A DNA stretch of 64,000 nt, taken from IMG/VR virus record IMGVR_UViG_3300000233_000006, positions 1 through 64,000 of that record. One strand, given 5' to 3'. Positions 18,686-55,127 of the stretch are shown one piece after another. This DNA comes from an uncultured virus (IMG/VR IMGVR_UViG_3300000233_000006). Its lineage: Duplodnaviria > Heunggongvirae > Uroviricota > Caudoviricetes. The notes beneath the pieces are model-generated. The model was given only the letters and a program-made list of their open reading frames with translations, was not told the DNA's origin and searched no databases. Numbering within the stretch: position 1 is the stretch's first letter; each line of letters opens with the position of its first letter. Made by a program: the position numbers and the translations under genes.

Positions 18686-18788
18686 GAACTAGGCCTCGTA
18701 GTAAATATAAAAAAAAAAGTGACTTCGGTATCTTTTGACTGAAAAGACAGTCTTTCATAGTATTTTAATCATTTCGGGAGTTTTTTTT

Positions 18789-19295
18789 ATGGCCGGTATT
18801 GTAAAAAAAGATTTTGCGTTGCCTAAGAAAAAGAAACTGGCTTCCTCAGTCAGTCATGAGATTCAAAAGAGCGCCGTGTCTGCGCCTGTACATAACTGGG
18901 ATGACCTTACGGGTCTATATCAAAGTATAGCGAATGCTATTATCTCGGTCGCGATTGAAGTTAAGAGTATCATTGAAAGAAAAGAAATCGCCGAACATAT
19001 TGAGAACCGCGTCGAATTCGATACGTTTGTTAATGCACTTTTTTCTGACTCGCAAAGATGTTCTGGGATCGTCAGGGATATTTACGAAAAACACAAGGAT
19101 TTTTCAGGTCTCGTGAAGACTGATGAAGAACTGAGACTTATTCTGACGTTGTACGAAGAATACATTGTCCTCAATAGTGACTTTCAAACAAACATCACGA
19201 ACAGCATGCTTGAAATTTCAATCATGGCTATGGATGCGAGTGAACGTTACGAAGCGACTTTAAAACAACCAACCCAGCCTGAGGCCGCGTTATGA
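18789..19295 (+). CDS. conserved hypothetical protein (gp78 position)
   Basis: Start moved to ATG 18789 (GGGAG RBS); overlaps the next start codon. Confidence 0.65.
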   Translation: MAGIVKKDFALPKKKKLASSVSHEIQKSAVSAPVHNWDDLTGLYQSIANAIISVAIEVKSIIERKEIAEHIENRVEFDTFVNALFSDSQRCSGIVRDIYEKHKDFSGLVKTDEELRLILTLYEEYIVLNSDFQTNITNSMLEISIMAMDASERYEATLKQPTQPEAAL

Positions 19296-23464: not shown

Positions 23465-23496
23465 AAGATAGTGTGCTTTTCAAAGCACACTATCTT
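23465..23496 (-). terminator. terminator after the gp74-like gene
   Basis: aagatagtgtgcttt-tc-aaagcacactatctt plus A-run. Confidence 0.75.
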
Positions 23497-23500: not shown

Positions 23501-23884
23501 TTAACTTTCCCGTTTCGAGACACTGCTTGGCTTAAAGAACATATCCATCGGATGGTCTGGTCGTAATAGTTTAAAGAACGATCTTGGATCAGTGATCCTT
23601 ACCGCCTGGTCTTCAAACGCGTAGGTTGCTGACATCGAACGCCTAAAGATATTTCGTTCAGCATGACTGACTTCAAAAGGCGTTGACGCATTAGGAAGAC
23701 GATAATCTTCGTCTTCAATACTTCGAACCATGACCGCATACAAAATGACTTCAAGGATCGATATGTTCACGTTAATTTTAGTATTAACGGTATCAAACAA
23801 CGCAGTTAGAACTTCACTTGGCGTGATATCCTTTTCAACGTTGGTAAGATACTTAACCGACGACTCGATGATCTTACTGATTTC
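23501..23884 (-). CDS. nvRNAP beta'-C subunit (phiKZ gp74-like), exon 2
   Basis: Begins EISKIIESS after the intron-terminal G; RSMSATYAFEDQ and HPMDMFF motifs. Confidence 0.85.
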   Translation of the reverse strand, partial: EISKIIESSVKYLTNVEKDITPSEVLTALFDTVNTKINVNISILEVILYAVMVRSIEDEDYRLPNASTPFEVSHAERNIFRRSMSATYAFEDQAVRITDPRSFFKLLRPDHPMDMFFKPSSVSKRES

Positions 23885-24317
23885 CTTAATGTCCAGTTAG
23901 CGCGCTACTGCTAACCCGGTGTGCTTCGACACCCGCCAACACTTTCATGTTGGAACAGACTATATCTTCACCTTCAGCTTAAACTGTTAAGGGTCTACTA
24001 TTTCGGCTTCGCTTGAAACCTACGCCTTACGGCTAGTCGTTGAACGTTCTTCATATCTCGTCTCACGACGATACGTAGAAGCTTCGCTGCGGATTACCCA
24101 ATCTTCATGTCTTTTACCGTACCCAGGTAATTATTCTGGCCACGCATATATTTCGATATGCGTTTGGTGCATGAAGCTCTAAAGGGACTTCCCGTCAATT
24201 AAATAGATATCGCTACGCCATTTCTGACATAGGTGCCATTAACAATGTTTGAGATCTAAATACCCAGCCTCCGGTAGGCTTTCCCGTATCTATTTTGGTC
24301 ACACATTGTTATTTTCT
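23885..24317 (-). ncRNA. group I intron (433 nt, no ORF) in the gp74-like gene
   Basis: P AATTGACGGGAAG, Q AATCCGCAGC, R GTTCAACGACTA, S AAGATATAGTC; 5' exon ends in U (GCT) and pairs TGCT/GGCA; ends in G; splicing restores the frame (666 aa). Confidence 0.9.
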
Positions 24318-25934
24318 AGCATTGTGATCCGCCATGTTGTAATGTTTGTAAGGCAGTACAAAAAGTGGCTTAGTATAATCCCATCGACTTAAGTCAAAGA
24401 CAAAGTTTGTGCGACCGTCGGTTCCGTACCCATATTTAAAAATGTACTCGATAAGTTCATAACTTAACATGGCTTTACGACCACTAAAGGTAAGTCGTAG
24501 CGGAACCGTCGTTTCACCGTCACGTGTCGTCGTAAACGATATCGCGGCATCACTTATCTCACTAACACGACTTAATGAAATGTTTTTAATATCTTCCATA
24601 GAGGTAAGGTCAGTAAGACTCGAACAACTTGTGATAGGTATCAAAATACTTGTCCTAAGTTCAAGCATCTCTTTACGTAAGTAATAGGAGTTCTTATCAT
24701 CACCCACTACAAAAAAGTTGACCTTAGTTTCATCAAGCGTTAAGGGTTCGATGTCGGATGAACCGTCGAAGTGCTTTGTTGACAAAATGTTCTGACCGGT
24801 TTGTTCCGTCATCGTTGCTGACGAAATATGGCCGAGATTATAATGTTCCGGAAGGTTGTGATGCAACTCTCCAAAACACACAGAACATATTATACCCTTT
24901 TCGATGTCTCGATGCTGACACCCTGCAAGGATGGAACGGATTTTTATCACCTTGTTTTCAAGATGTTTGTCTGTTATTTTAACGGACTTTAACGTTCCAT
25001 CATTATCGACATACTGTTTACCTTCAAAGTTAGCAAGGTCTCCTTTGTTGACGGTTCGTCCGCGTTCATCATAGACGGGAGGTTTGACAAGCCAGTCGAT
25101 GGTCTTGGTCGAACCACAGTCGCCATAATCAACATTCTTGATGATCATGGTAAGTAACTGAAGACGGCGCGCAAAATATTCAGAATCGCTCAAAGGGTCT
25201 TCTGCGAAGAACAATGATTTAGCCGCAGAACGCGATTCGATCACCGAATCATACAGGTCTCTAAATCCAGCAAAATAACCTCTTAAGATAGGTTCTCTAA
25301 AGATGGTCGAGTCAATGTCCGTAAGGAAACCGCGTGGACCGACGCATTGCAAAACCTGATTAGCTTTAACTACGTTAAAACGTACGGCTTTGGCAAGCTG
25401 ATTACGATTAAGGCTTTCAGAGCCTTTTAGACTCTTAAGGATGACCGAATAGCATTTGTCGATACTTCGCTGGGTTGGTCGAAGTTCTTTAAGGCTCTGA
25501 CTGATCTCCGGTTCGTCAACGATTTCGCAAAAGTCGAGTATGTCAATAGACGTGACATACGCTTCCGTATGCTTTGATAATTCATTATACGCTTCATTAA
25601 TTACCTCATAAATGCGTTTCTTTATATACTTTTTTGATTCAGGTGTGTTGAGTCTATAAACACTGACGACGTCGCGTAATAACGACGTCATACTTACACT
25701 TGAATTAAAGGCATTTCCTTTGAGTTGAGATTTGACGTGATGCCTGTAAAGAAGAGGCGTGTTGGGGTAAGAGCGTATGACGCCCCACATAAACCAAGAG
25801 AAAATAGTTTCTCTTGAATTCACCTCGACGACCTCCCCATCATCAAACGTAAGATTAAATGTTCCTCGAAGATTATTGACTAACGTCTCATAATCAAGGT
25901 TCATTAGTTTTCGTGCACTGAGATTAGGTTTCAT
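24318..25934 (-). CDS. nvRNAP beta'-C subunit (phiKZ gp74-like), exon 1
   Basis: QCVGPRG, ESRSAAKSL, SEYFARRLQL, DCGS, CSVCFG, QNILSTKH motifs. Confidence 0.9.
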
Positions 25935-26830
25935 TCAGAGGACTCCACAGTTTTCCAACCCGCACACGCGGCGATATGATCGAAAATTTGCAATGACTTG
26001 GATAAACCATAGTCTTGCTTGGAACGATCAACCGCGCTATGTATGCGGCCTGGTTTATCAGCACCTAATATGGATGATACCACCATTTTGTGTGTGACAG
26101 GGTTATTGTTTCGATCCATGATTTCAGGGATCGCCTTAGGATGGCAGTACGATGCAATGATACGACCTTCGGTTTCGCCAACCGTTTTTACAGGGCTGTT
26201 CTTCCAAGGACGACCGTATTTTTCTGAACGCGTGATCGGTGACAGGATACCGAAGTGCTGCATCGTTGCTGACGATACCGCCGACCAGTCATCTGCAATC
26301 TTTTCGAGAACAAGAAAATACATCGGTGCAACACGTACGCGCTCTTTCGTGGTATGTCGACGACCTGAATTCCCTACGTACGATACCGGACCGAACGTCG
26401 GTTTGAATCGTGCTTCTAAGCGTCTCACGATAACCGGCGTTTCGATCGGGTTGTCTGTTGGGATAAAAAGGTATAGGCGATCTTTAAGGATCGTTCCCAT
26501 AATCTCTTCAACGTCATCTTCATTGAGCTTACTATAAACATCATGCTGTCTAGGTGACGCGATTTCATAAAACGACATGACTTCATTAACATGAAACGCG
26601 TACTTCTCTGGCAAAGTATTTTTGAACTGACTGAGTGTTAAAGTACCGACGTCACGCTTAAAACGTAATTCGATCTCAAGACATACCGAACCAAAATAAT
26701 GTTCGTATAAACGACCAATGTTGGTTCGGTCAATCGTTGAGTTACCGTCCATAATCACATCAGCCCGAACGCCAAGTTCGTTAACCGGCATGTTTTCAGG
26801 CTTTTCGATTTTACAAATCACTCCCTTACC
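25931..26830 (-). CDS. nvRNAP beta-C subunit (phiKZ gp71-73-like), exon 2
   Basis: GKGVICKI..MP, ADVIMD..S..RTNIG, GETEGR motifs. Confidence 0.9.
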   Translation of the reverse strand, partial: GKGVICKIEKPENMPVNELGVRADVIMDGNSTIDRTNIGRLYEHYFGSVCLEIELRFKRDVGTLTLSQFKNTLPEKYAFHVNEVMSFYEIASPRQHDVYSKLNEDDVEEIMGTILKDRLYLFIPTDNPIETPVIVRRLEARFKPTFGPVSYVGNSGRRHTTKERVRVAPMYFLVLEKIADDWSAVSSATMQHFGILSPITRSEKYGRPWKNSPVKTVGETEGRIIASYCHPKAIPEIMDRNNNPVTHKMVVSSILGADKPGRIHSAVDRSKQDYGLSKSLQIFDHIAACAGWKTVESSE

Positions 26831-27241
26831 CTCGTTGTCCGGTTAGTTCGCAACGCTAACCCGGTGTGCTTTGACACCCGCCAACACTTTCATGTTGGGA
26901 CAGACTATATCACCACCTTCAACTTAACTTGTTCAGGTGCTTCCCGTTTCGGCCCCGCTTAAGGTCTACTCTACTTATCAAATACCGTTCTGATATATGA
27001 TTTTCGATAGTCGTTGGACGTTCTTCCTATATCGTCTCACGACGATACGTAGAAGCTTCGCTGCGGATTACCCAATCCTTGTCGTTTTTACCATACCCAG
27101 GATCATTACACTGGCCACAACGTAACTTTCGTATACGTGCTTGGTAGACAAGGCTCTTAGGGACTTCCCGCAATTAGAGAAGTTTTCGACCAGTATTTTT
27201 ACTGGAAGCGGCTTGATTTGAATTTTACCTCAAATCAGTTA
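26831..27241 (-). ncRNA. group I intron (411 nt, no ORF) in the gp71-73-like gene
   Basis: P AATTGCGGGAAG, Q AATCCGCAGC, R GTCCAACGACTA, S GATATAGTC; P1 CGGT/GCCG with U-G at the splice site; terminal G; splicing gives NKITDIHG|GKGV (695 aa). Confidence 0.92.
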
Positions 27242-28429
27242 ACCGTGAATGTCGGTAATTTTGTTACCCATGTCAGGTTTAAGCGTATACTCTACCGTAA
27301 TCTCCACGCGATAGTCGTCTAACGTCGTTCGACGATAAACCTTTTCAATCTCCTCTACACCTTTCTTATTTTTTCTTCCAAGAACAGAATAGGCTTCAAT
27401 AAGAAGCCTATGAAACTCAGGCGATATTCTGAGTTTCTTTTCACCGTACTTACGGTAATGATCCTGTTTAATGTCCTTGTAAGCTTCAAGAATATCGTTG
27501 TAAAAAGAACGTAAGGCGCGTGCGTACTTGTCCGGAACTTCGCAAACTTCACGAGGTGTAGGGATGTATTCGTTATCGTCGTGATAGACCTTAATATCGA
27601 TGACGCGACCGCCTTTACCTCGCGTGTAAATTTGCTTATCGAAGATATAGTCGATTTCTCGACAATCTAGGAAAGACATTTCGACAGGAGCGAGATCAGG
27701 ACGGTATTCCCTTAGAGCCATGAGTACACCGTCATCACGGATCATGTCGCCAATTTCAGGAAATGGACGATAGACCTTATCGTCACCGTACATGTTGAGG
27801 GGAAACGTATTCTTACCGAATTCAATGACGCGTTTTTCAAACGTGTTAAATGACATGCGGTCGAGTACATCCTCAGATACGATGATACCGTCCTCAGATA
27901 CGCCAGGTAGAGACATGTACGCGATATTGAGTTCGATACCATAGGCATAACCACCCGAATGTATTTTCGAGCGACTGTCGTGACTTACAGTTCCTTTAGC
28001 GACATGGTTGCCCGGATAAAACTTTGTGGCGTCCTGCGTCTTAACGAGCTTGAAACCATGATATTGATGGTATGACCTGAAATACGGTACGGTAAAAATA
28101 CCGACGATACCCGTGACAGAAGATTCGTAAACGAATATTTTCTCAGGTGAGTGCGAAATATAATCCTTAGACAATGTCTTTGGATAGCGCTCAATCACTT
28201 TTAAGATGAGTCCGTCTTCGGGCATACGAACACCTAGCGTATGTTTACCGATCTCATATTCGATACCGGTTTGAAACCGATGTTCGGTAGCATCTTTGGT
28301 CACAAGACATTGTGATAGATGCGAACTAAACATTTGCTGACGGGAAGACGAGTTATGCCCCGCAAATGGGTTAAGTGCAAGGATAGATAGGAACTCAGGT
28401 TTGAGTTCCGATTTCGATTCTACGGTCAT
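27242..28429 (-). CDS. nvRNAP beta-C subunit (phiKZ gp71-73-like), exon 1
   Basis: NSSSRQQM..H..Q, SEDGIIVS and GNKITDIHG motifs. Confidence 0.9.
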
Positions 28430-28472
28430 AAAACACCTCTATTTTAAAAAACGTTTGATCTTAGTCATGTAA

Positions 28473-28480
28473 GTAATATA
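28473..28480 (-). promoter_or_regulatory. early promoter TATATTAC for the gp71-74 operon
   Basis: GTAATATA 44 bp upstream of the ATG. Confidence 0.7.
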
Positions 28481-28511
28481 TGACTGAAAAAGCTTGGGGG
28501 AAAATAAAAAA

Positions 28512-28862
28512 ATGGAAGTTCATCGCTTAAGTACAGCTACTGGACAGTTGTTTAACTATACAGAAAAATATCACGTTTATCTTGAATCTTTAGCGCATCA
28601 TTTTAAACGCCTTGCTTCAACACGATATGTATCTCCTAAAATTGATCTGCATTATAAGTACGACGGTGATTTATACGGATATCTTGCCGATATCGAAAAG
28701 ATACCTCATCAACATCATCTTTTTATTGCCCGCATCAACGGTTATTCAAGCTCTGATCAATTCAGGTTTAATTACACTGACGTCAATGTCCTAACCTTAA
28801 TGATCCCTGACTCAGCCGAGATTACCGCTTTTAATTCAGTTTACCTTACGTTTAACAAATAA
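28512..28862 (+). CDS. conserved small protein, LysM/baseplate-gp53-like (inferred)
   Basis: YKYDGDLYGYL..IP..H..IARING pattern; opposite strand to its neighbours; start moved to ATG 28512. Confidence 0.5.
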   Translation: MEVHRLSTATGQLFNYTEKYHVYLESLAHHFKRLASTRYVSPKIDLHYKYDGDLYGYLADIEKIPHQHHLFIARINGYSSSDQFRFNYTDVNVLTLMIPDSAEITAFNSVYLTFNK

Positions 28863-28863
28863 A

Positions 28864-28898
28864 AAAAAGATAGAGGGTGTAAACTCTCTATCTTTTTT
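28864..28898. terminator. bidirectional terminator
   Basis: aaaaagatagagggt-gtaa-actctctatctttttt between convergent genes. Confidence 0.7.
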
Positions 28899-28932
28899 AA
28901 TGTGCGCGCATCAGAATGCGCGCATAAGTACG

Positions 28933-30324
28933 CTAGCGATAACCCTGAGGTTGACCGTACATAGGCTGAGGTTGCTGAGGATAACCGTAACCTTGTTGCG
29001 GGTATGCTGAAGGTATGTTAGGTGCAGCCCATGATGGGGGTGTTGTACCTGGGGGTATGTTTTGCGAAGACGTCGCCCACGGTGGAGGAGGCTGTTGTGG
29101 ATACCCTTGAGGTGGATAAGGCTGTTGGGGATACCCTTGAGGTGGATAAGGCTGTTGGGGATACCCTTGAGGTGGATAAGGCTGTTGGGGATACCCTTGA
29201 GGAGGGTATGGCTGCTGAGGATAAGGCGGTTGTTTAGGCTGACCAGAATTCAGGATGTCACGAAGTGACGGGCCTGTTGGTTTTACCTTATTGGCCGGAT
29301 GAACCGGAGGGGTTGGCATCGTAGGGACTGATGCATAAGGTTTATCAAACGGTACCGTGTCATCAATGATATTCCCGTCCTGTTGACTTGAGGAAGGCGC
29401 ACTAATGTCTTGTTGAGGTCTTGACTTTTTACGACCACCGTCATTATGGGGTAAGGACGGTAGAAGCCGTGAAATCGACTTGAGTTCGTCGCGATCGTTA
29501 AAGACCTTGAGAACATTCTGCATACTTTCACTTTCAGAAACTGTGACTTCAACTTGCCCATATTCGTCGACATCGTCCTTAAACATCACGAGAATGTCTT
29601 GGATGCGTCCAAAGAGCTGACTGGATGTGACATAAAGCGCTTCAAGGAATGGTGCCGTTAGGGAGTTTGAGCCTTCGTTATAAAACTTAGGTTCTTCAAT
29701 CCCAGTAAAGACAAGTTCAAAAAGCGCCTTTAAGATGTCATAATCCTTAACGCGCATTTTACTTCCGTAGATCGTATCGTCCTTAGAAATGATTTTTTCA
29801 TACATCGGAAACGTTACTACGGCAACACGCGCAAAGTGCTTTCCACGAACATCGCCTGAGCGATTCAAGTGAATGTTTAAAAAGGCCTTGTCGGGAGATT
29901 CCTTAATGGCCTTGAGCATCATGCCGGTAAACGCCTTGACGATCTTATCATCAACACCCACAAGCCTTGAAATAAGCATGGACTGGTCAACACTTAATGT
30001 CGCATGACGTTCAGAACTTGACGCGATATGCAGAAGCGTCTGCATAACGATACCGGCCATAAAGTTAAGGCGCGTATTGATCGCCTTTCTAAAGACACGG
30101 ATAACCTCGCTTTCACCGAGAATGATGTTCTCGCTAAGTGGATGGAAGATGACGACGTTCGACGCGTCGCGAACATATTCTTCTGTAGGGAAGACAAGTG
30201 GCTTACTTTCGATACTTAGAGGTTGGCCTTTGTCGCCAAGCTTAAAGTTTAAGACGCCGTGATTGTCGTAGCTAAGTTTACCGATCTTAATCAAATCTTC
30301 ATAAAACGCTTTGAGCTTAAACAT
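28933..30324 (-). CDS. phiKZ gp70-like core protein with P/Q/Y/G low-complexity tail
   Basis: FHPLSENI..GES motif; synteny; start moved to ATG 30324. Confidence 0.75.
   Translation of the reverse strand: MFKLKAFYEDLIKIGKLSYDNHGVLNFKLGDKGQPLSIESKPLVFPTEEYVRDASNVVIFHPLSENIILGESEVIRVFRKAINTRLNFMAGIVMQTLLHIASSSERHATLSVDQSMLISRLVGVDDKIVKAFTGMMLKAIKESPDKAFLNIHLNRSGDVRGKHFARVAVVTFPMYEKIISKDDTIYGSKMRVKDYDILKALFELVFTGIEEPKFYNEGSNSLTAPFLEALYVTSSQLFGRIQDILVMFKDDVDEYGQVEVTVSESESMQNVLKVFNDRDELKSISRLLPSLPHNDGGRKKSRPQQDISAPSSSQQDGNIIDDTVPFDKPYASVPTMPTPPVHPANKVKPTGPSLRDILNSGQPKQPPYPQQPYPPQGYPQQPYPPQGYPQQPYPPQGYPQQPYPPQGYPQQPPPPWATSSQNIPPGTTPPSWAAPNIPSAYPQQGYGYPQQPQPMYGQPQGYR
29090..29225. repeat. 30-bp coding tandem repeat x4.5 (YPQQPYPPQG)
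   Basis: ggctgttggggatacccttgaggtggataa units. Confidence 0.95.
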
Positions 30325-31753
30325 CTTGGATCCCCATGGGGTTTTGGGTGGTTTTTGAAACAAGGCCTAGAATGTAGCCCATGTCATTGGTGAAAGATTC
30401 GTGGAGTTCACGATTTGTAACAACGGGCGCTGACATACTGTCACAGAACGTTGGTGCGTTAAAAGGTACTTCGGGCATGTTATCAACAGAAACGTTTACC
30501 GACGTTTCACCAAAAATGTCGGCATTCACGAATACGGAAATTAACATTTGTCCCGAATAGGAAATATCAAGCATGACCTCTTGAATAACGCGCCATTTAA
30601 ACGCGTCAAAGTTTTGACGCATGTCGGCATCGACAATCGCTTCGTGACCAAGAATAATCACTTCAAACAAACCGTTAACGGTGTTATTGGTCACGCTCAT
30701 CGAAATCTTACCAAAAAGCAAATCCATCATGATCGAGGGGATTGCCTTTGATACGATCGACGCGATCTGAGCTTCGCGACCAACTGAAGACCAGTATTCG
30801 GTTTGCCCGTGACTGTGCGAATGCTGTAGCATCCTACCTTTATTTAAAACGATACGCGTTTTTGGATCAAGGTAATTATCAAGTTCTAAAAGATCTCCGT
30901 AATTAAATGTGTTCGAAACGCCAGTATTTCTCGCACCGTTCATGGCCATGATAAAAGGGTTGCGAACGATAGGGTGTTCAGATACCGCGCGTCTCGCCGA
31001 TTCCGTCGCATTAGAACTATTAAGATCATAACTTGACGCAACTTTGGCCTCGCTGTAGTTATCGACTAAACGACCAAGATACATCGACGGGATATCGTTC
31101 TTTCTTGATGAGAGTTTAGTTTCCCTGTTGATCATAGATCGCGTGTCAAGAAATTCGTGCTGATTCAGAATGTCTTGTTCAAACTCCATATTACCGTAAA
31201 TGTCCTGTGGACGTGTAAGGTATAACGGCTGGTATGCGTACTGACTCTGACTCATGTCACTTGTAATGACGCGATTCGATTCGATCAACCGACTCTTAAT
31301 TTGTTGACCGACCGGTGTCGTATAGACTGTGCTCGTTAAGACGCTGAAGCTATTGATGTAAAACACCATCGTCGGGTCGACAAAACCTGACGCCGTAACG
31401 CCAGCATGAGACGTAAATCCTTGAAAGATATGTGTCGCAACGCCGCCAAATGACTGCTGAACATCAACCTCAAGAATAAAACGACATCTCTTTTCTTGCC
31501 AGCCGTTAGCGATAGTGACTTCGCCTTGAGGCTGTGCCGAAGGTACGACAATGGACATCGAAAGACCTTGAAACGACGTCGAAGTTAGACGTCCATTAGT
31601 TTCTTGAAGTACGTCATCAATCTGCTGAATGATATCAGGAAGCGCCTGGGCGTTAGACGTGTACGGTCGATGAAACATCGGGTTATACGTCCCTGTCTCA
31701 GCGATAATAAGTCGTTTGATTACCGTGGTCATACCCAGAGATAATTGATTCAT
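30317..31753 (-). CDS. picA: phage-nucleus protein import factor PicA/Imp1 (phiKZ gp69-like)
   Basis: ETGTY..RPY, IANGW..RCRFILEV, RPQD and PTFCDS motifs; lies between the gp68- and gp70-like genes. Confidence 0.75.
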   Translation of the reverse strand: MNQLSLGMTTVIKRLIIAETGTYNPMFHRPYTSNAQALPDIIQQIDDVLQETNGRLTSTSFQGLSMSIVVPSAQPQGEVTIANGWQEKRCRFILEVDVQQSFGGVATHIFQGFTSHAGVTASGFVDPTMVFYINSFSVLTSTVYTTPVGQQIKSRLIESNRVITSDMSQSQYAYQPLYLTRPQDIYGNMEFEQDILNQHEFLDTRSMINRETKLSSRKNDIPSMYLGRLVDNYSEAKVASSYDLNSSNATESARRAVSEHPIVRNPFIMAMNGARNTGVSNTFNYGDLLELDNYLDPKTRIVLNKGRMLQHSHSHGQTEYWSSVGREAQIASIVSKAIPSIMMDLLFGKISMSVTNNTVNGLFEVIILGHEAIVDADMRQNFDAFKWRVIQEVMLDISYSGQMLISVFVNADIFGETSVNVSVDNMPEVPFNAPTFCDSMSAPVVTNRELHESFTNDMGYILGLVSKTTQNPMGIQDV

Positions 31754-33282
31754 GTAAGTCTCCTAGTAGCGAGTTGAAGTATGAGATTCGCCAAAATTTG
31801 GCGAATGTTTTTATGGATAAGTAACGATCGAGTATGGCAAGATTTGCCGTATAACGAACGAAGCATGTCCATGGGTACAGTAGCCTCCCATTGCACTTTA
31901 ATTAAATCGTCAGTGAGTCTGTCGATCGACATAAGTGCCTGGTTGACAGGTTTGAAATCAGCCGTACGGTTACTTATCCTTCGTGTCAAATAAAGACGAT
32001 CAAGTTCTTTGACCGTTTCAGCATCCACTGGGAATTTCGTTTCAAGTTCGTAGAGACTAATTTCGGTTCGATTACGATCAAGTCGTGCGGTAGATAAGAC
32101 CGCGAGTTCGCGATGTCCGTACGACCATAAAACCGTCTGAACAACCGCCATCAACTCAATAAGTTTTTCTTTGTTGATGTATGAAACCGAACGCGGCGAA
32201 ATCACGCTTTTTAAAACCCACTGGAGGAGGATGATTTGCGGATCAAGAATGCGTTCAAATGCAAGAACCTGAGTCTGTTCAAGCGCCATGTCAAGCATAG
32301 CGAGATTGATATCAGGCTTAAGCCTTTGTGCTACAGCACGTATATCGCGAACCGAATGTTCGATACCCGCAATATCACCGATCGCGACCGTTTGTTTAAT
32401 ACGGTAACGTTCAAGCATAGAAACGTGTCCGCTAAATCCTTCTTCGGTTTCAACGGTTCGTTTGATGTCATGAGGTACTGAAGGATCTTCAAGCGGTTTA
32501 TCACGCTGCTTAATGAACTTGTAAATAAGCGTAAGAAGGTGCGTCTGATTGTTTTCGAACACAGGACGCACGAGTGAGAGTTTTCTAACCAGCGTAACTG
32601 CCGTGATGAATTCTGGATAGTCTTCAGATGAAATACCGTTAAGTATGACCGACAGCATGTTGTCCGAATCAATCGTTTCTTTAACGTACGCCATCATTTT
32701 AATGAATGCGTCAGATTCGATAAAGAGACTGTTGTTCAGGATTTGATATGCCATGTACTCCTTCTGATTTTTATTCACCGCATTACGCGTGCGATTCATA
32801 AAGTCACCCCATATCGGAACCATAGCTTTAATGGCTACAGTAAGAACGATCAGTTCGACATAATCTTCGTGAAGGTATGTTTTACTTAATGTCGTTTTAC
32901 GATCATGGTCAATGACAAATTCTCGCTTGAAAGAATCAGGTATGGTTATTGAAGAATTAAACCTTACCCAATGCTTAATGGTGTCGAGTGGCAAAAGGTA
33001 GGCAAGCTCTCGCGCGATTTCGTTTAAATCACTTATGAGACTTGCGCTGGTGTAGAGGCCGTCAAGCTCCCTTTTAAATCTTAAATAACATTCGAAGATT
33101 TTATCCTGATGTGCCATCGGCAAAGTTTCGACGAATTCATTGAATTCATGAAACATGTTCTCATCTTCGACGGTCCTCCGACCATAGATCGTGAGTGACC
33201 ACGTGATGATTTCGCCACGATGTTCAACACAGGCTTCGATAGCCTTATGTGTTTCTTTAAGATTAAGTACGCTTATTTTCAT
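31750..33282 (-). CDS. nvRNAP promoter-specificity (sigma-like) subunit (phiKZ gp68-like)
   Basis: 510 aa; TYL..DY..L, MVPIWG.F, KE..A and S.LERY..K motifs; synteny. Confidence 0.8.
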   Translation of the reverse strand: MKISVLNLKETHKAIEACVEHRGEIITWSLTIYGRRTVEDENMFHEFNEFVETLPMAHQDKIFECYLRFKRELDGLYTSASLISDLNEIARELAYLLPLDTIKHWVRFNSSITIPDSFKREFVIDHDRKTTLSKTYLHEDYVELIVLTVAIKAMVPIWGDFMNRTRNAVNKNQKEYMAYQILNNSLFIESDAFIKMMAYVKETIDSDNMLSVILNGISSEDYPEFITAVTLVRKLSLVRPVFENNQTHLLTLIYKFIKQRDKPLEDPSVPHDIKRTVETEEGFSGHVSMLERYRIKQTVAIGDIAGIEHSVRDIRAVAQRLKPDINLAMLDMALEQTQVLAFERILDPQIILLQWVLKSVISPRSVSYINKEKLIELMAVVQTVLWSYGHRELAVLSTARLDRNRTEISLYELETKFPVDAETVKELDRLYLTRRISNRTADFKPVNQALMSIDRLTDDLIKVQWEATVPMDMLRSLYGKSCHTRSLLIHKNIRQILANLILQLATRRLT

Positions 33283-33323
33283 AAAACACCTCTATTTGAA
33301 AAAAAGATGACACTGTCATTTAA

Positions 33324-33331
33324 GTAATATA
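33324..33331 (-). promoter_or_regulatory. early promoter TATATTAC for gp68-gp70
   Basis: GTAATATA 42 bp upstream of the ATG. Confidence 0.7.
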
Positions 33332-33367
33332 GTCTTGAAGAAAACTGTATGTTGGTACAAATAAATA

Positions 33368-33402
33368 AAACGATACCCGCTCGCTTTCGCCGGGTATCGT
33401 TT
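33368..33402 (-). terminator. terminator hairpin
   Basis: aaacgatacccg...cgggtatcgttt. Confidence 0.7.
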
Positions 33403-33414
33403 AAGTTGTATTAA

Positions 33415-34233
33415 TTAAAAGCTAATGTCATCTTCTCCAAACGAATCATTTTGAGTGTCTCGTTGCTGCTGTTGTGGTTTCTGATAATTATTCTTGTAGC
33501 CGCCACCTTGACTTCCCTGGCTCTTGTAGCCACCACCTTGATTATTGCGGTATCCACCGCCCTGATTATTGCGGTAACCACCGCCCTGATTATTGCGGTA
33601 ACCGCCACCTTGATTGCTCTGGCCTTTCGCATCACGCTCAGCCTTTTTTTCAGCAGTGAAATCGTGAAACTCATCAACAAGAATGGTGGGAATGAGGCTC
33701 AGTAAAAGCTTGGCATAACTGAGAGCCGCAATCCTTGATGACTGTGCTGCGGTCATAGGCTTATTATCCGACGATAAGAAGTCATGGAATTCAGAGATGA
33801 TGAAAGGAAAACGAATCGTTGACTTATTTCGTTCAAGGATCGTGATACCGGTAATGCCCGCTTCATCCTTATCAACCAGGATCTTAGATGCGACTTCGAG
33901 TTCAGGAGGACGGGCTTCACTGTCACGTACGGGACGACGGCAAATCACAGTGACTTTTTCACCAGGTTCTCCGTTAGCGATTTCGATGAGCTTGTCTAAA
34001 AGCGCCTGCGTTGTAACGGCGTCCATTGCCGCAAAGATACGACCGTATTTGTCTTCTTCGCTAAAGTCAGAAGGGTCTCCGGTAAACACCGTGAAACGAG
34101 GGTTATTTTTGTTGATAGAAAAGAGAAGGCGCGCATTGCCGCCCACGTTGTTTTTTGCACGCAAGGATAATTTTTCGTTATCAAGCGCGTTCTTTTTGTA
34201 TACGACTTGAGTAACTTGAGCAGTTTCTGACAT
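33415..34233 (-). CDS. chmC: nucleus-associated RNA-binding protein ChmC (phiKZ gp67-like)
   Basis: KNALD..KL.L and NNPRFTVFT motifs; G/N/Q/Y-rich tail and acidic DDISF end; immediately upstream of the gp68-like gene. Confidence 0.65.
   Translation of the reverse strand: MSETAQVTQVVYKKNALDNEKLSLRAKNNVGGNARLLFSINKNNPRFTVFTGDPSDFSEEDKYGRIFAAMDAVTTQALLDKLIEIANGEPGEKVTVICRRPVRDSEARPPELEVASKILVDKDEAGITGITILERNKSTIRFPFIISEFHDFLSSDNKPMTAAQSSRIAALSYAKLLLSLIPTILVDEFHDFTAEKKAERDAKGQSNQGGGYRNNQGGGYRNNQGGGYRNNQGGGYKSQGSQGGGYKNNYQKPQQQQRDTQNDSFGEDDISF
33495..33615. repeat. 24-bp coding tandem repeat (NNQGGGYR) x4 plus a degenerate copy
   Basis: ccaccgccctgattattgcggta-like units. Confidence 0.9.
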
Positions 34234-34298
34234 AATAACAACCTCAAAATAAAAACTATGATTAGAGAAAGGGACTATAAGATAGTCATGTTTGGTTT

Positions 34299-35162
34299 TT
34301 AAATACTTGCATAAACCTGTTTAACAAGAAATCTTTCTTTAACGTAAAGGTCGAGATCTTGCCTAATTTTGTCCTCCGTTGTAAAGACCGTCCATCGACC
34401 CTTTTCAGCCGCGTCAAGAATGATATCCCGGTACGCACTGAGCATGGGAGAGAACATAACCATGTCACCAAATATCGCAAGAAGTTTTCGGGTAAAAGGC
34501 ATCGGCCTCATTTCCTTACCTTTGTAATACTTGGTATACCACAACTCTTTTTTCTTAATGACTCCTGTATGACTTTCGAGAAGTACAAGTTCTTTAAAAT
34601 GCTTTTCACCTAAAAGATCATAAGGAACGTGCGTTAGAATGATCGCATTCTTTTCCCTTATTTCTTTACCTAAAGGATGAGGATGTGCGTTATAGGTCAC
34701 TACATCGTCTTCTTTGTGTTCTTTCAAAAAGGTTTGAGCACAATAAAGTCTGACAGACTCTTCTTTAAGTTGTTTTTCAGTCTTCGGTATTCTGAGGTTA
34801 ACGTAACGGTTCGAAAACACTGAAGGTAAAACATATCTCGGTTTGTAAAACACGGGTTTGATATGATTAGATCCTTCATTGATTAAAATCGAACGTATCA
34901 TCTCAACTTCTTCAACAAGGGTGTTGAAAACTTTAGTTTGGTCGAGTTCTTTAAACCCGACATCATTAAGTGACCCGATGATATTTCTAATAAGCGTGTT
35001 AATGTTAATTTGAAATTCACCGTAATCACTCACGTCAAAATGAGTGACTGGTCGTTCTGGATCGTACGCTGTCTGACGTCCAGCAAAAAGACTTTCAAAG
35101 GCGATCGACGTACCTATTGATAAAGGGAACGCCGAGACAGTACGGTCAAAGTAAGTGCTCAT
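34299..35162 (-). CDS. phiKZ gp66-like core protein (possible nuclease-like fold)
   Basis: FPLSIGTS.AFE, N..TL.RN and LLESHTG..K..WYTK motifs. Confidence 0.7.
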   Translation of the reverse strand: MSTYFDRTVSAFPLSIGTSIAFESLFAGRQTAYDPERPVTHFDVSDYGEFQININTLIRNIIGSLNDVGFKELDQTKVFNTLVEEVEMIRSILINEGSNHIKPVFYKPRYVLPSVFSNRYVNLRIPKTEKQLKEESVRLYCAQTFLKEHKEDDVVTYNAHPHPLGKEIREKNAIILTHVPYDLLGEKHFKELVLLESHTGVIKKKELWYTKYYKGKEMRPMPFTRKLLAIFGDMVMFSPMLSAYRDIILDAAEKGRWTVFTTEDKIRQDLDLYVKERFLVKQVYASI

Positions 35163-35171
35163 GATTTTATC

Positions 35172-36311
35172 TCACAAAACGTCGTTTAAAATCCCCTCAT
35201 AGCGTAACGTTAAAGCGTCAATGTGGTTTGGGTCGCTTTTAATTCGTGTCATAAGGAGGTCATGTAGGTTATTCCTTGTAAGTAATATAGGCGCGTAATC
35301 TTGTTCAAACGTACGAATGAGATCGTCGTCGTTAATGTTCGTCTCTTTTTGATCAAGAACTTTTTTACTCCATATCACAGAAGGGTATTTTTTCTTGACT
35401 TCGTCAAAGTGATTTAGCGTTGGGTGATCTGACAATGCTTTAAGTCTAACGTAACTTCCAAACGGTAGTGTTGAGACAAGCTTGTCAATTTTTTTCATTG
35501 CTTTATTTGAGTCAAGCTCTGAAATATCGATTGTTTTAAATACCTTCGCGTTCTTATTTTCGATGAAAAAATATTCCATCTGACCGTCACGATAGATATG
35601 ACATTCCATCATTCCTTTAGCTTCTTCTTCGTTATGACTTAGACGATCCACTGAACCTTGAGCCAAGATACGTGAGAAGACCGATGATGTATGAATATGT
35701 CCTATCGAAATAAAATACTTGACGATATTAAGATAGTTTTCCTCATTATGTCGCGGTATTTTCTGTATGTGAGCAGGAAGCTGGTACCCGAACTGACCAT
35801 GCATGATCGCGATATCAACTTTACTTACATGTCGTGCCTTCAGTTCTGAAAGCACGTCTTCATACGTCTTGTCTGTCGACGGATCCCATTCGTCAGGAAC
35901 GTAGAGCACATGGATATCTAGGTCTTCCATGTGCTCTACGTGTACCGTCGTGATGTATTTGAAGTCGATTGGGAGTTGTGAAACTGAAATCGTTGTTTCA
36001 AATTGCTTGCATTGAAGCCAGTCGTGACTTGGCGTACCTTCAAGCACACGAAGTTTAGTCTGGTTTCTAGCACAGAAGTTAAGTAACCATGCCATAAAGA
36101 GAAGACTTTCAGTTGCTGTATCTGAAGGTAGTGTGATGAGACGATCAAAAAGATCACCTGCGATAAAAATAATGTCAAGTTTATTTTTTCTGTCATAAGA
36201 CTTGAGCATTTCTTTAATGTTACTTATAATGTCTAAAGCATCGTTTCTAGGATTACCTAAGTGAACGTCGCTAAAAACAAGATATTTAATGACGTCTTTA
36301 GTCATCGTCAA
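35172..36311 (-). CDS. sbcD: SbcD/Mre11-like metallophosphoesterase nuclease (phiKZ gp65-like)
   Basis: SDVHLG, AGDLFD, GTPSHD, MHG and GHIH motifs. Confidence 0.85.
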   Translation of the reverse strand: MTMTKDVIKYLVFSDVHLGNPRNDALDIISNIKEMLKSYDRKNKLDIIFIAGDLFDRLITLPSDTATESLLFMAWLLNFCARNQTKLRVLEGTPSHDWLQCKQFETTISVSQLPIDFKYITTVHVEHMEDLDIHVLYVPDEWDPSTDKTYEDVLSELKARHVSKVDIAIMHGQFGYQLPAHIQKIPRHNEENYLNIVKYFISIGHIHTSSVFSRILAQGSVDRLSHNEEEAKGMMECHIYRDGQMEYFFIENKNAKVFKTIDISELDSNKAMKKIDKLVSTLPFGSYVRLKALSDHPTLNHFDEVKKKYPSVIWSKKVLDQKETNINDDDLIRTFEQDYAPILLTRNNLHDLLMTRIKSDPNHIDALTLRYEGILNDVL

Positions 36312-36867
36312 ATTCCACGCCTGAGGCTTCGGGTTCTTTATTTATGACGCGACCTTCAACCTCGTCGGTATTTATACCGTAATAGCTAAAGATAACATCC
36401 CATTGACCGGCATAACGGTCGAGTCCTGTTTCGACTGACCGAATATGTTTTTCAAATTTTTTATCTAAGGCGTCATGGATCTTACCTTCGGCCAATGTAG
36501 GAAAGTCCTGAGCGGTGCGTTGATGCCTTTCCTGGATAACGGAATAATGTTCGCCGTCGCGCATCTTACTCATTTTTTTCGTCATGGAAGTACCGTATAT
36601 AGGCGGTACCGTGAAAAGAATGTTATTTTTTTCATCGACGATATCGACAGGAAGCTGCGCTGTTCCGGCGATCTGTATCCACTGATCCAAAAGCATAAGC
36701 CATTCTTCATTAGGATGTTGACTTAAGAAGAATGGTAAGAAAACTTCTTTAAAAATCGGTTCAGGAAGTTGGTTAGAGACCATTTTGGTATCGATGATAC
36801 CCTTTTTAATAACGATAAGGTCAGAACGAAGTTTTCTAAGAAGTGTGTCTGCAACGGGATTTGACAT
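36298..36867 (-). CDS. phiKZ gp64-like conserved protein
   Basis: LPE..F...FLPFF, W..IAG and LFTVPP motifs; synteny. Confidence 0.65.
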   Translation of the reverse strand: MSNPVADTLLRKLRSDLIVIKKGIIDTKMVSNQLPEPIFKEVFLPFFLSQHPNEEWLMLLDQWIQIAGTAQLPVDIVDEKNNILFTVPPIYGTSMTKKMSKMRDGEHYSVIQERHQRTAQDFPTLAEGKIHDALDKKFEKHIRSVETGLDRYAGQWDVIFSYYGINTDEVEGRVINKEPEASGVEFDDD

Positions 36868-36870
36868 TTT

Positions 36871-37287
36871 TTATATCTCGGTATCATTGTTTAGATCAGC
36901 GACCTTTTTAAGTACAGATCCTTCAGTCGTAAGGATTTTACCTAGGTTAATTGACCGGCCATAATTATCGATGCAGTTAACGTAAATCGAAAGTTCGACG
37001 AAAGAGGAGTCTTTTTCATTTCGATACCCTGTTTCAACCACAACTTTTTCAAAGTAACGTCTCAAGTAGGACGTGAGTACTGTCTTAATATTTTCTTGAA
37101 GTTCGACAGGTTTTTTCAGATAGGTTTCAAGGAGCCATGAAAAACTTTTGACGTTACCTATGTATAGGTACGTTTGCGTATAGTTAGAGAGCAAGAAATC
37201 AGAGAAGAGTTTGTCGAGTAAGGTGTTTGAGTCAGTGACCCAGCCTCCTTCATCAAGACTTCCGTACGTCGTTGAAATGCGCGTCAT
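36871..37287 (-). CDS. phiKZ gp62-like protein (possible gp25-like baseplate/sheath initiator)
   Basis: GWV..D.L.S.F..S.Y.Q pattern; synteny. Confidence 0.55.
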   Translation of the reverse strand: MTRISTTYGSLDEGGWVTDSNTLLDKLFSDFLLSNYTQTYLYIGNVKSFSWLLETYLKKPVELQENIKTVLTSYLRRYFEKVVVETGYRNEKDSSFVELSIYVNCIDNYGRSINLGKILTTEGSVLKKVADLNNDTEI

Positions 37288-37333
37288 AAATCACCAAAAA
37301 ATAATGAACCGCCGAAGCGGTTCAAAAAATCAT

Positions 37334-37939
37334 TTACTCAAATGCGTTTGTCGGGTCAATGTCCTGGCTCATGAAACATTCGATAACATCCCAAGTAGAT
37401 AGAATGTAGCGCTGTTCATCGTGCGTAAGTTCACGGTCATTGGAATAGAGTTCTTCGAAATAGAGTGAGGCTAAATGATCCCCCTCATCTACAACCACGC
37501 CGTTCATTACGCGGCGATAATCGTAATGGTCTTCTTTCGTCGTTTCCCCAAAGACATTAACATACGTATCGTTATAACCGTCAACCCTTTGATCCAAATA
37601 CGCTTGCCTTAGCGTGGGTTGTGCCATAACCCAACGCTGCATCATGACTGAAGCTAACTGAAGATCCTCCAACGTATCGATTGGTGCGATCCGATTAGTA
37701 TCCTCAAAGAAGCCTTTGACCGTTTGACCTAACCGTCGCACAAGATTATTCATTTCAGTAATATTAAACATATTACCGACAACCTCTCTTGATCGATCTA
37801 GGAATGCGCGACCCTGTTCATTCAACGTATTGTACACGTTTGAAAGTTGGGATTCGATGACCCCAACATTATTGTACGATTGTTGTGGGTAGAAGAGTGC
37901 GTCAAACGCTCTCGACCCACCTTCAACAACAATAGCCAT
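37334..37939 (-). CDS. phiKZ gp59-like core protein (Imp3-like import cofactor)
   Basis: MQRWVMAQP, DYRRVMNG and terminal DPT motifs; synteny. Confidence 0.6.
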   Translation of the reverse strand: MAIVVEGGSRAFDALFYPQQSYNNVGVIESQLSNVYNTLNEQGRAFLDRSREVVGNMFNITEMNNLVRRLGQTVKGFFEDTNRIAPIDTLEDLQLASVMMQRWVMAQPTLRQAYLDQRVDGYNDTYVNVFGETTKEDHYDYRRVMNGVVVDEGDHLASLYFEELYSNDRELTHDEQRYILSTWDVIECFMSQDIDPTNAFE

Positions 37940-37940
37940 T

Positions 37941-38171
37941 TTAAACCTCCATTAATTTTATAAAACCTTCATCCATCGCACTTTCCTCGTTAACATACTG
38001 CATCCAGTTCGCGATATTCGAAATCACAGGACCTGGTATACTAATGTTTCTTGAAGTGGATAATACCTCTTGCCTTAGGGTAGTAAGACCGTTGCTAGGC
38101 GCAAGCGGACTCATGTAACGCTCCATGTCCTCATCAACCATTAACATCACGTTCATTTGATCGCCATCGAA
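37941..38171 (-). CDS. nvRNAP beta'-N subunit (phiKZ gp55-like), exon 2
   Basis: Begins FDGDQMN immediately after the intron-terminal G. Confidence 0.9.
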   Translation of the reverse strand, partial: FDGDQMNVMLMVDEDMERYMSPLAPSNGLTTLRQEVLSTSRNISIPGPVISNIANWMQYVNEESAMDEGFIKLMEV

Positions 38172-38597
38172 CTCGTTGTCCGGTTAGTTCGCAACGCTAA
38201 CCCGGTGTGCTTTGACNCCCGCCAACACTTTCATGTTGGGACAGACTATATCTTCATCCGGTAAATACCGGATGTCTCCCGCTTCGGCCCCACTTAGGGT
38301 CTACACCTTGCTAAAGGGTTAGTCGTTGGACGTTCTTCATATCTCGTCTCACGACGATACGTAGAAGCTTCGCTGCTGATTGCCTAATCTCTATAGTTTT
38401 CGAGCGTATCACGTTTATCCTTTCGGATTGCGTTGTAGCCTATAGAGCTCTCAAGGGTTTCCAGCAATTCAAGAGATTTCTAATAAGACATTACTGTCTT
38501 ATAGGACATGTAAAAACAAAACGAGTATTAAGTATATGGACACGCCTTTTAGTTGGAATCCATAACGTTAATTACGTCCTCGTTAGGAGCATTTACT
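38172..38597 (-). ncRNA. group I intron (426 nt, no ORF) splitting the catalytic NAD|FDGD motif
   Basis: P AATTGCTGGAAA, Q AATCAGCAGC, R GTCCAACGACTA, S AAGATATAGTC; P1 GAT|AGTAAA pairs with TTTAC-A-TGTC; splicing gives a 487-aa product. Confidence 0.93.
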
Positions 38598-39830
38598 ATC
38601 AGCGTTCGGGCCTTTGACCGTCAAGATCGATAACTGAAGTGTAAAGTCGAAGGGATTAGTTTTGACTTTAGTGATCCCTACCGCATAAAACGATGTAATG
38701 AGTAGTGAAGGGTTACGTTGAATGGTTGCAGGCAAACCGTACTCACCGCTCTCAAGAATGATTTCTTTAAAGAGGNTATCGATAAANGGATCGAATTCAT
38801 ACATCTTGGAGTATAGGTAACTGATGCAATCGTTGTAATTCATTCCAAGTTTCATCATTTTATTGATGAGATGGAATTTAAGAACAACTAATGCTGACTG
38901 CCAAGGAATATGAATTTCGTCATAACGGTGAGTATCCGTGATTGACGTAATTACTGCGCGTACGCAAAAGTGTGTACGTGTTGCCATAATGTGCTTTCTG
39001 AAAATACCTTCTTTTTGAGAAAGGATATTTGTGTAGAAAAGCTGGTAGTAGTGCGATAACTTATCCATGACCTTGGAGATGCGATTTTCTTTAACGCGCG
39101 TACTGTAGTCCTTTACTTTAGAATCAATCGAAAGTAAAAGTTCGACGGCGTCAATCGCTTCAGCTACGGTATTGTCGATATAGACTCCGACATTCGTCTT
39201 TTCAACGATCAGAAGCGTTTTGTTGGGTAGAGGTAAATAGTTCGAGAACGGACGAGTCTCCGGACTCATGACGAGTTCATAAAGGAAATCTCTTCGTCCT
39301 TTTGGGAGTTTATATCCCTGAAGATTGAAGACGACGTCCATAATGTATCTGAAGTTGGTAACGAAGAAATTATATCCTCGCTGAATGTTGTTTTCCTGAA
39401 GTACTGAGATCACCTTAGGAATTGTTTTGGTGGGCGTATACGTTGTATCCGTAAGCCATTGAATGATAGAAAAACCTTTCTTAGAGAAACGCTTTGTGAT
39501 CATCAGCCATAACGTTGGGTTGATTAAGCCTTCGATATCTACGGGCTTACGGAACCAGACGAGTGGTTTAATGTCTTCCTCGACATGACCGCGCACTTCG
39601 GTATTGCAAATGGTACAACGGAGTCCTATAGAAAACTCACCTTTCGTTTCGCCACATTCGCATGACGGGATAGAACTTACGATATCCGAACTAAAGCTAG
39701 AATAAATAATATTCTTGATATCTACTCCGATTTTACCATCTTCTTTATAAATATCATTAAGAATAATGGGTGGGGTTTTTAAGCCTGTGATTAACTCATC
39801 GAAGTTGATGAGTTCTTGATGGATTGCCAT
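38598..39830 (-). CDS. nvRNAP beta'-N subunit (phiKZ gp55-like), exon 1
   Basis: CECG..C.IC zinc finger, KEGIFRKH..TR, RAVITS, QRNPSL and GPNAD motifs. Confidence 0.9.
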
Positions 39831-55124: not shown

Positions 55125-55127
55125 AGA

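What the first reader, a model, noticed from the sequence alone, without database searches (positions are those of the whole stretch)
23501..39830. Three ORF-less group I introns each interrupt a different non-virion RNAP subunit gene
Seen: introns at 23885-24317, 26831-27241 and 38172-38597. Each has P/Q/R/S cores, a U-G pair at the 5' splice site, a terminal G and a stop codon within 5 codons of its start. Splicing restores DHNA|EISK (gp74-like), IHG|GKGV (beta substrate-binding motif) and the catalytic NAD|FDGD. Established: phiKZ gp55 and gp71-73 are intron-split, with an HNH gene (gp72) in the latter. I do not recall a gp74 intron in phiKZ. Here none of the three carries an endonuclease ORF. 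Inference: nvRNAP assembly needs three guanosine-dependent splicing events, which could gate the switch from early to late transcription. The phage nucleus, which uncouples transcription from translation, may make this tolerable.
Basis: partly seen in the sequence, partly recalled or inferred. Interest (0 to 1): 0.8.

Follow-up and report, generated by a model that had tools for sequence, protein, structure and literature searches.

The report
Optional introns split phage polymerase genes
Three closely related group I introns with no gene of their own interrupt three RNA-polymerase subunit genes of a nucleus-forming jumbo phage and are predicted to splice themselves out; near-identical phage DNA in public metagenomes lacks each one or carries a longer, likely endonuclease-bearing version, so they are most likely selfish elements coming and going, not a regulatory switch.

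Summary
Observation confirmed. RF00028 hits all three introns (109/94/90 bits).

The gating idea is not supported. Metagenome contigs of ~99%-identical strains skip each intron in DNA, in mixed combinations. Other alleles of introns 1 and 2 carry ~1.4-kb inserts near the 5' splice site, likely homing endonucleases (interior unseen). 17 of 25 related records have no intron in these genes.

The gp74 site is not unique: 10 of 119 homologues stop there, and six other loci hold a complete intron there (three with ~460-aa HNH genes, one with a remnant, two ORF-less). One other record has introns in all three genes. I found no paper on a gp74 intron.

Less ordinary: the three ribozymes are each other's closest relatives (72-78% versus ~56% median) in a mosaic pattern, suggesting gene conversion or spread within one genome.

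Best reading: the homing-endonuclease invasion and loss cycle, caught in one phage population. Splicing itself is untested (no RNA run listed). The scan noted gp55 introns before on other DNA.

The parts
24318..25934 (-). gp74-like nvRNAP beta'-C gene, exon 1 (539 codons; start overlaps the gp71-73 stop)
   Evidence: PHROG 3015 E 7e-145; tblastn with phiKZ gp74
23885..24317 (-). Intron 1, 433 nt, ORF-less group I intron at DHNA|EISK, equivalent to phiKZ gp74 K539|R540, six residues after the trigger-loop insertion domain
   Evidence: RF00028 94.4 bits; empty allele joint skips 433; position
24302..24304 (-). Place near the 5' end of intron 1 where other alleles carry about 1,359 extra nt (likely an endonuclease ORF)
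   Evidence: 1631-nt contig in X4/X6, loose ends in X7/X8
23501..23884 (-). gp74-like gene, exon 2
   Evidence: PHROG 3015 positions 559-651
23465..23496 (-). Terminator-like hairpin after gp74
   Evidence: consensus scan only
27242..28429 (-). gp71-73-like nvRNAP beta gene, exon 1 (396 codons)
   Evidence: PHROG 3295 positions 6-402
26831..27241 (-). Intron 2, 411 nt, ORF-less group I intron at IHG|GKGV
   Evidence: RF00028 89.7 bits; empty allele in X4, X6, X7
27217..27225 (-). Loop near the 5' end of intron 2 where other alleles carry about 1,457 other nt
   Evidence: 1676-nt contig in X4/X6; loose end in X8
25931..26830 (-). gp71-73-like gene, exon 2
   Evidence: PHROG 3295 positions 403-690; PF00562
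38598..39830 (-). gp55-like nvRNAP beta'-N gene, exon 1 (411 codons)
   Evidence: PHROG 2987 positions 1-418
38172..38597 (-). Intron 3, 426 nt, ORF-less group I intron inside the catalytic motif, NAD|FDGD
   Evidence: RF00028 109.1 bits; precise empty allele in X4 and X7
37941..38171 (-). gp55-like gene, exon 2
   Evidence: PHROG 2987 positions 419-475
26831..26911 (-). 81-nt 3' end of intron 2, identical to 38172-38252 of intron 3 (one N there)
   Evidence: shared 81-nt contig at raised depth
31750..33282 (-). gp68-like sigma-type subunit gene, uninterrupted (context)
   Evidence: tblastn with phiKZ gp68 E 2e-42
39963..41798 (-). Nuclear shell protein (chimallin) gene (context)
   Evidence: PHROG 4795 E 1e-77

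Best explanation
These are three group I introns, predicted to self-splice, that sit in active-centre codons of three non-virion RNA polymerase genes and are most likely selfish homing elements at the endonuclease-less stage of an invasion and loss cycle, optional for the phage. Shown: the ribozyme cores, the splice sites, intron-free alleles of all three in near-identical strains, longer alleles of introns 1 and 2, and HNH genes in same-site introns of other phages. Inferred: (1) an HNH nickase encoded near the intron's 5' end cuts the empty allele in co-infections and repair copies the intron in, with the last exon letters; (2) the HNH gene is later deleted, leaving the short form seen here; (3) the short form persists because imprecise loss would wreck the catalytic centre and because splicing is efficient enough to be nearly neutral; (4) the three ribozyme cores were homogenised by gene conversion between copies in one genome, or descend from one intron that reached three sites.
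For: Empty alleles: joints 23885->24319 in 4 of the 7 runs laid over it (X4, X6, X8, X9), 26830->27246 in 3 of 7 (X4, X6, X7), 38171->38598 in 2 of 4 (X4, X7). States assort: X9 lacks intron 1 but holds short intron 2 and intron 3 sequence; X7 holds intron 1 (long ends) but lacks 2 and 3. In X4/X6 empty and filled alleles share one 2,512-nt exon contig. Long alleles: +1,359 nt in intron 1 (453 codons; loose ends read ATG at the start and TAA at the end) and about +1,457 nt in intron 2, in the position where phiKZ gp56/gp72 and same-site HNH genes lie. gp74 site elsewhere: L190, L223, L248 (1.8 kb, 459-470-aa HNH; PHROG 59 E 1e-31 for L190), L021 (660 nt, 77-aa remnant of the same family), L197 and L203 (ORF-less). 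gp71 site: 11 of 19 introns have an ORF of 259 aa or more, 8 of 19 have none. Empty alleles of introns 1 and 2 differ by silent changes at the last exon letters, so they are not simple precise-loss products of these alleles. Homogenisation: the three are each other's nearest of 69 cores, 72-78% against medians of 56-57%; same-gene introns elsewhere have medians of 54-59%; differences are clustered (7 of 10,000 shuffles as low); one clade for gp74-site ribozymes is rejected (p-AU 5e-8), while their HNH proteins are 40-64% identical.
Against: No splicing was shown. ONT data of phiKZ gave no evidence for splicing of its predicted introns (PMC10914365, passage), although two spliced reads were seen for a 201phi2-1 vRNAP intron (PMC11512511). 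The long inserts were seen only by length and 30-letter ends, taken from different runs; their interior and any nuclease motif are unseen. Contig depths do not add up exactly (intron 1 in X4: 64 + 83 against 129). X4 and X6 may be one data set filed twice. The direction (loss of the nuclease gene versus its gain by an ORF-less intron) is not fixed. The clade of the three window introns has 90/100 support, includes the phiPA3 gp71-73 intron, and the bootstrap had not settled. P1 of intron 3 is weak.
Confidence: 0.8

Rival explanations
1. One reading: three guanosine-dependent splicing events limit nvRNAP assembly and time the early-to-late switch.
For: All three introns lie in subunits of one enzyme, while the virion RNAP genes scanned in this record are uninterrupted. 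Condition-dependent splicing has a precedent in the S-PM2d psbA intron (PMC5931967, passages).
Against: Each intron is absent from co-occurring near-identical strains, in independent combinations. 17 of 25 related records have none in these genes, 4 have one gene split, 3 two, 1 three (hand tally). Sites and numbers vary freely (gp55 has at least four sites). The switch already has a compartment-based explanation (PMC10612078, passages). Recalled: cellular GTP lies far above the usual Km of group I introns for guanosine.
Confidence: 0.07
2. The short introns are kept as armour: they break up the target sites of homing endonucleases carried by competing phages or of free-standing ones, so they give immunity without the cost of a nuclease (collaborative homing, interference competition).
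For: Long, probably nuclease-bearing alleles co-occur at two of the three sites. phiPA3 gp210 harms an intron-less competitor (PMC11620839, first part read). The S-PM2 psbA intron protects against F-CphI. Empty alleles carry silent changes at the site, as escape alleles might.
Against: No free-standing homing endonuclease was found among the record's scanned ORFs apart from an IscB, and the record is incomplete. This is compatible with the best explanation and adds selection to it; no test separates them here.
Confidence: 0.3
3. One ORF-less intron spread to three unrelated sites inside this lineage by ectopic transposition (reverse splicing or mis-homing), and nuclease genes moved in afterwards.
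For: The three cores are nearest relatives. All three 5' exons end in G-N-U. The I2/I3 identity ends exactly at the terminal G.
Against: The 5' parts and guide sequences differ and the sites share nothing else. All three sites are old hot spots used by unrelated ribozymes in other phages. The mosaic pattern fits conversion. No reverse transcriptase was found in the record's scanned ORFs. PMC3984707 says this pathway lacks direct evidence (passage).
Confidence: 0.15
4. The short ORF-less forms are assembly artefacts that collapsed longer introns.
For: The introns are repeats of each other, and the record holds N positions.
Against: Single contigs of 2,787 and about 2,085 nt bridge both insert positions without an insert at depth over 300 in X1 and X3 (possible source runs). 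X9, from another study, bridges 27050-27826 without it. ORF-less introns occur at the same sites elsewhere.
Confidence: 0.02

Closest known systems
phiKZ gp55/gp56/gp56.1 and gp71/gp72/gp73 introns (NC_004629.1)
   Same: Group I cores in the same two nvRNAP genes, at the same catalytic motifs.
   Different: phiKZ sites are 6 nt upstream (PN|ADFDG) and 3 nt downstream (HGG|KG); both carry HNH genes; phiKZ gp74 is intact.
phiPA3 gp71-73 intron (HQ630627.1, about 55,005-55,454; annotated only as a fragmented gene)
   Same: ORF-less, 450 nt, nearest outside relative (67-71% core identity), similar 3' end.
   Different: Site HGG|KG; phiPA3 gp55 and gp74 are intact.
phiPA3 gp210 intron in the virion RNAP beta gene (Birkholz 2024, PMC11620839)
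   Same: Group I intron at conserved RNAP residues with an HNH nickase that targets the empty allele; the likely mechanism here.
   Different: Virion RNAP; intact, tested nuclease; the window's introns have none.
AR9/PBS1 and MarsHill-like jumbo phage RNAP introns (Korn preprint 10.1101/2020.12.14.422802)
   Same: Several RNAP subunit genes split by introns, with variable exon numbers.
   Different: Different phage groups; the beta'-C homologues of PBS1 and Machias are single CDSs. Table 4 of the preprint is an image I could not read.
IMG/VR record G010 (loci L021, L173)
   Same: Introns in all three genes: gp55 (three, 358-402 nt, one at NAD|FDGD), gp71-73 (449 nt), gp74 (same site); none with an intact ORF.
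   Different: Its ribozymes are unlike the window's (55% at the NAD|FDGD site); unpublished data, not literature.

Membership tests
Group I intron | Covariance-model match over the curated cut-off | tested here: met
   RF00028 89.7-109.1 bits, cut-off 50
Group I intron | P, Q, R, S elements and P7 helix | tested here: met
Group I intron | U at the 5' splice site paired to G in P1 | tested here: met
   U in all three; P1 clear in intron 2, 4 bp in intron 1, 3-4 bp and ambiguous in intron 3
Group I intron | Terminal G and restored reading frame | tested here: met
   empty alleles
Group I intron | Guanosine-dependent self-splicing | not testable with these tools
   needs RNA or an in-vitro assay
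Group I subgroup IA (label recalled) | Extra helices between P7 and P3 | tested here: inconclusive
   31-59-nt inserts after the R element in the cmscan alignments of introns 1 and 2, 36 in intron 3; no subgroup model was run
Autonomous mobile (homing) intron | Intron-encoded endonuclease ORF, window alleles | tested here: not met
   longest sense stretch 53 codons
Autonomous mobile (homing) intron | Intron-encoded endonuclease ORF, long alleles in sister strains | tested here: inconclusive
   1,359- and about 1,457-nt inserts, only ends seen
Autonomous mobile (homing) intron | Empty cognate allele exists | tested here: met
phiKZ-type nvRNAP genes | Homologues of gp55, gp71-73, gp74 and gp68 | tested here: met
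phiKZ-type nvRNAP genes | Homologue of gp123 | tested here: inconclusive
   no match in a record rated 48% complete
Nucleus-forming phage (Chimalliviridae) | Chimallin gene and core gene order | tested here: met
   PHROG 4795, gp68/69/70, PhuZ, terminase, both RNAP sets; major head protein not found
Regulatory splicing gate | Conserved and required across strains | tested here: not met

The most novel reading that the evidence does not exclude
One wild chimallivirus population holds the whole homing cycle (empty, nuclease-bearing and nuclease-less alleles) at active-centre sites of one enzyme, including an undescribed site in the second trigger helix of gp74. Ribozyme and nuclease evolve as separate modules: the nuclease follows the site, while ribozyme cores are overwritten by other introns of the same genome. 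That would be a route by which a group I core reaches new sites without reverse splicing, and the short forms may be kept as immunity against sister phages' nucleases.
Probability: 0.4. Interest if true: 0.62.

Novelty: new variant of a known kind. Interest (0 to 1): 0.45.

Why it matters
Group I introns in jumbo-phage RNAP genes are known, and the gating idea fails, so this is not a new regulatory system. Three things remain useful. (1) The gp74 site is recurrent but undescribed in the papers searched; it makes gene callers cut the beta'-C subunit short (10 of 119 homologues end there). (2) Empty, long and short alleles co-occur in near-identical strains, with silent changes at the cut site, so the homing cycle and interference competition can be tested in a natural population. 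(3) Introns in three unrelated genes share mosaic, near-identical cores, which bears on the open question of how group I ribozymes reach new sites.

Tried and rejected
No RNA holder was listed for the region; this says nothing on expression.

Exact-pattern scans of viral contigs found no close sister intron: 0 hits, and one 309,208-nt record matching phiPA3's length. A single-protein locus scan found nothing.

A profile search for relatives of the gp74-site HNH protein never returned, so the long inserts stay unidentified.

The IscB guide does not match the spliced junctions (longest shared word 7); IscB-driven homing is rejected.

Sigma-70 promoter hits were at chance level (40 against 41.9).

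gp55 and gp71 truncation rates from protein searches (82 of 120; 62 of 68) are inflated by exon-1 queries and the length window, and are not used as prevalence.

L233 and L243 first looked split at gp74 but are contig ends; L222 and L044 were uninformative.

In 60 of 305 cultured-phage matches listed for an intron-free gp74, none showed an intron-sized gap; the other 245 were not seen.

Two primary papers (AR9 genome 2016; phiKZ transcription 2014) are not held, so their intron tables were not seen; supplements were not opened.

The 100-nt repeat at both record ends does not show a complete small genome, since gp120 and gp123 were not found.
Full report
Source. The window is the first half of a 127,910-nt virus record rated 48% complete. 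It carries chimallin, gp68/69/70, PhuZ, terminase and both RNA polymerase sets, so it is a phiKZ-like, nucleus-forming phage. phiKZ gp120 and gp123 found no match, so the fourth core subunit could not be checked. The host is unknown.

Rfam RF00028 scores 109.1, 94.4 and 89.7 bits on the three elements, and there are no others in the record. P, Q, R, S, P7, the 5' U and terminal G are present. Stops follow at codons 3, 1 and 5, and no sense ORF exceeds 53 codons. P1 is clear for intron 2 and weak for intron 3. All three sites are in the active centre. Intron 3 splits the Mg-binding NADFDGD loop. Intron 2 lies between the two RNA-contacting lysines of the beta barrel (K386, K394 in phiKZ; PMC7618050, passages; mapping by motif). 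Intron 1 maps to phiKZ gp74 K539|R540, six residues after the trigger-loop insertion 396-533, which I infer is the second trigger helix. gp71-73 and gp74 overlap at their stop and start, so introns 1 and 2 likely share one mRNA.

The introns are optional in this phage. Fifteen DNA runs hold the region; I laid 7 of them. Contigs of strains about 99% identical skip intron 1 (X4, X6, X8, X9), intron 2 (X4, X6, X7) and intron 3 (X4, X7; only four runs were laid over it). The intron 3 joint is precise. The joints for introns 1 and 2 imply silent changes at the last exon letters (Ala GCG for GCU; His-Gly CAU GGC for CAC GGU). Other alleles keep the intron but add about 1,359 nt at 24302-24304 and about 1,457 nt at 27217-27225 (contig length minus mapped ends). 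The ends of the first insert read ATG and TAA and its length is 453 codons, but the ends come from X7/X8, the length from X4/X6, and the interior is unseen. X1 and X3, possible source runs, hold only short introns 1 and 2, bridged by long contigs at depth over 300; X9, from another study, also has short intron 2. X7 and X9 show different combinations, so the states assort. Caveats: these are contigs, not reads; depths do not sum exactly; X4 and X6 may be one data set.

The sites are hot spots. Of the best 119 gp74 homologues (727 found), 10 stop at this motif. In DNA, 1 of 52 viral loci and 5 of 80 metagenome loci hold a complete intron there, and two more are cut by contig ends. Four sit at the same codon boundary and two within two codons. 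L190, L223 and L248 carry 459-470-aa HNH proteins, L021 a 77-aa remnant, and L197 and L203 nothing. Five of the six pass the RF00028 cut-off; L223 was found only by my own profile. At gp71-73, 4 of 19 introns use the window's site and 15 the phiKZ site; 8 of 19 are ORF-less. At gp55, 29 of 120 homologues end at NAD (biased sample). RF00028 rings in 24 of 47 IMG/VR records, up to 9 times (five loci left out for the limit). Among 25 records where all three genes were seen, 17 have no intron in them, 4 have one gene split, 3 two and 1 three (hand tally; one duplicate and one record lacking gp71 dropped). That one record, G010, was added because of its gp74 intron.

The unusual part is kinship. 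Among 69 intron cores the three are each other's nearest (77.7, 74.9 and 71.9%; medians 56-57%), followed by the phiPA3 gp71-73 intron (14 duplicate loci and partial hits were dropped). Same-gene introns in other phages have medians of 54-59%. The last 81 nt of introns 2 and 3 are identical, and the closest pair changes along the core (7 of 10,000 shuffles). One clade for the seven gp74-site cores is rejected (p-AU 5e-8), while the four gp74-site HNH proteins are 40-64% identical, with one gp71-site protein as close. A similar 82-nt tract joins gp55 and gp71 introns in record G005, so this is not unique. Overall within-genome similarity is only slightly above between-genome (58 against 55%). 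I read this as gene conversion among repeats, with transposition as the rival.

Mechanism. Most likely (0.8): HNH-driven homing into active-centre codons, loss of the nuclease gene, and persistence of a near-neutral ribozyme that cannot be deleted imprecisely. Immunity to sister phages' nucleases may add selection. Splicing, nuclease identity and direction of change are inferred. The gate (0.07) conflicts with the polymorphism and the patchy distribution. nvRNAP subunits are early products, and the switch has a compartment-based explanation (PMC10612078, passages). An in-frame stop after the 5' splice site is a known feature of such introns (PMC3984707, passages).

Literature seen. Passages: PMC12908238, PMC10914365, PMC7598289, PMC12350094, PMC11512511, the Korn preprint (table an image), PMC7886860, PMC5931967, PMC7618050. 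PMC11620839: first of six parts and passages. These establish introns in phiKZ gp55 and gp71-73 and frequent RNAP introns in jumbo phages. Searches showed no gp74 intron, no three-state population and no intron homogenisation in these phages. The AR9 2016 and phiKZ 2014 papers and all supplements were not seen and may bear on this. Earlier notes of this scan report gp55 introns many times on other DNA; none shown was about gp74.

Verdict. Real; a known kind of element with a new recurrent site and an informative population snapshot; the regulatory reading is not supported. Interest 0.45.

Noticed in passing
G000 63871-65461 (starts at the window's right edge; L004 874-2461), minus strand: IscB-type protein (RRXRR + HNH, 443 aa) with a HEARO RNA (109 bits) just upstream. 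Its guide region does not match the spliced junctions.
   Followed up: partly
G000 1-100 and 127811-127910: The record's ends repeat 100 nt with one mismatch, yet major head protein and gp123 homologues were not found: a fragment closed on a repeat, or very divergent genes.
   Followed up: partly
L174 2560-4016 (G005) and L173 2728-3828 (G010): gp55 genes with four and three tandem group I introns; in G010 the inner exons are only 10 and 12 nt.
   Followed up: partly
L009 19845-20294 and 39430-39735 (phiPA3): Group I introns not annotated as such in phiPA3's gp71-73 gene and near its DNA polymerase homologue; four RF00028 hits in that genome.
   Followed up: partly
L008 about 18734-20555 (Bacillus phage AgentSmith record): Group I intron with an HNH-like ORF, 68% identical to window introns 1 and 2, in a region annotated as hypothetical.
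   Followed up: no
window 33304 and 36929: Loose ends in several runs show other insertions or rearrangements in sister strains, between gp67 and gp68 and inside the 138-aa gene.
   Followed up: no
window 38407: X7 has a loose end inside intron 3, a variant peripheral region or another insert. In X1/X3 the intron 3 contig has about three quarters of the genome depth, a hint of an empty allele there too.
   Followed up: no
window 55697-56302: 201-aa ORF with a weak I-TevI DNA-binding-domain match (E 5.5e-5, under the cut-off) and no PHROG hit; possible nuclease remnant.
   Followed up: partly
window 49098-49193 and 50102-50197: Two neighbouring ORFs share a 96-nt 5' repeat (95%), and similar N-termini recur near 85.5-87.3 kb.
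   Followed up: no
runs X1, X3, X4, X6, X8 over 24001-24117 and 26817-27187: Other contigs in the same samples carry related group I cores with different flanks, so the ribozyme family is present in other genomes or loci there.
   Followed up: no
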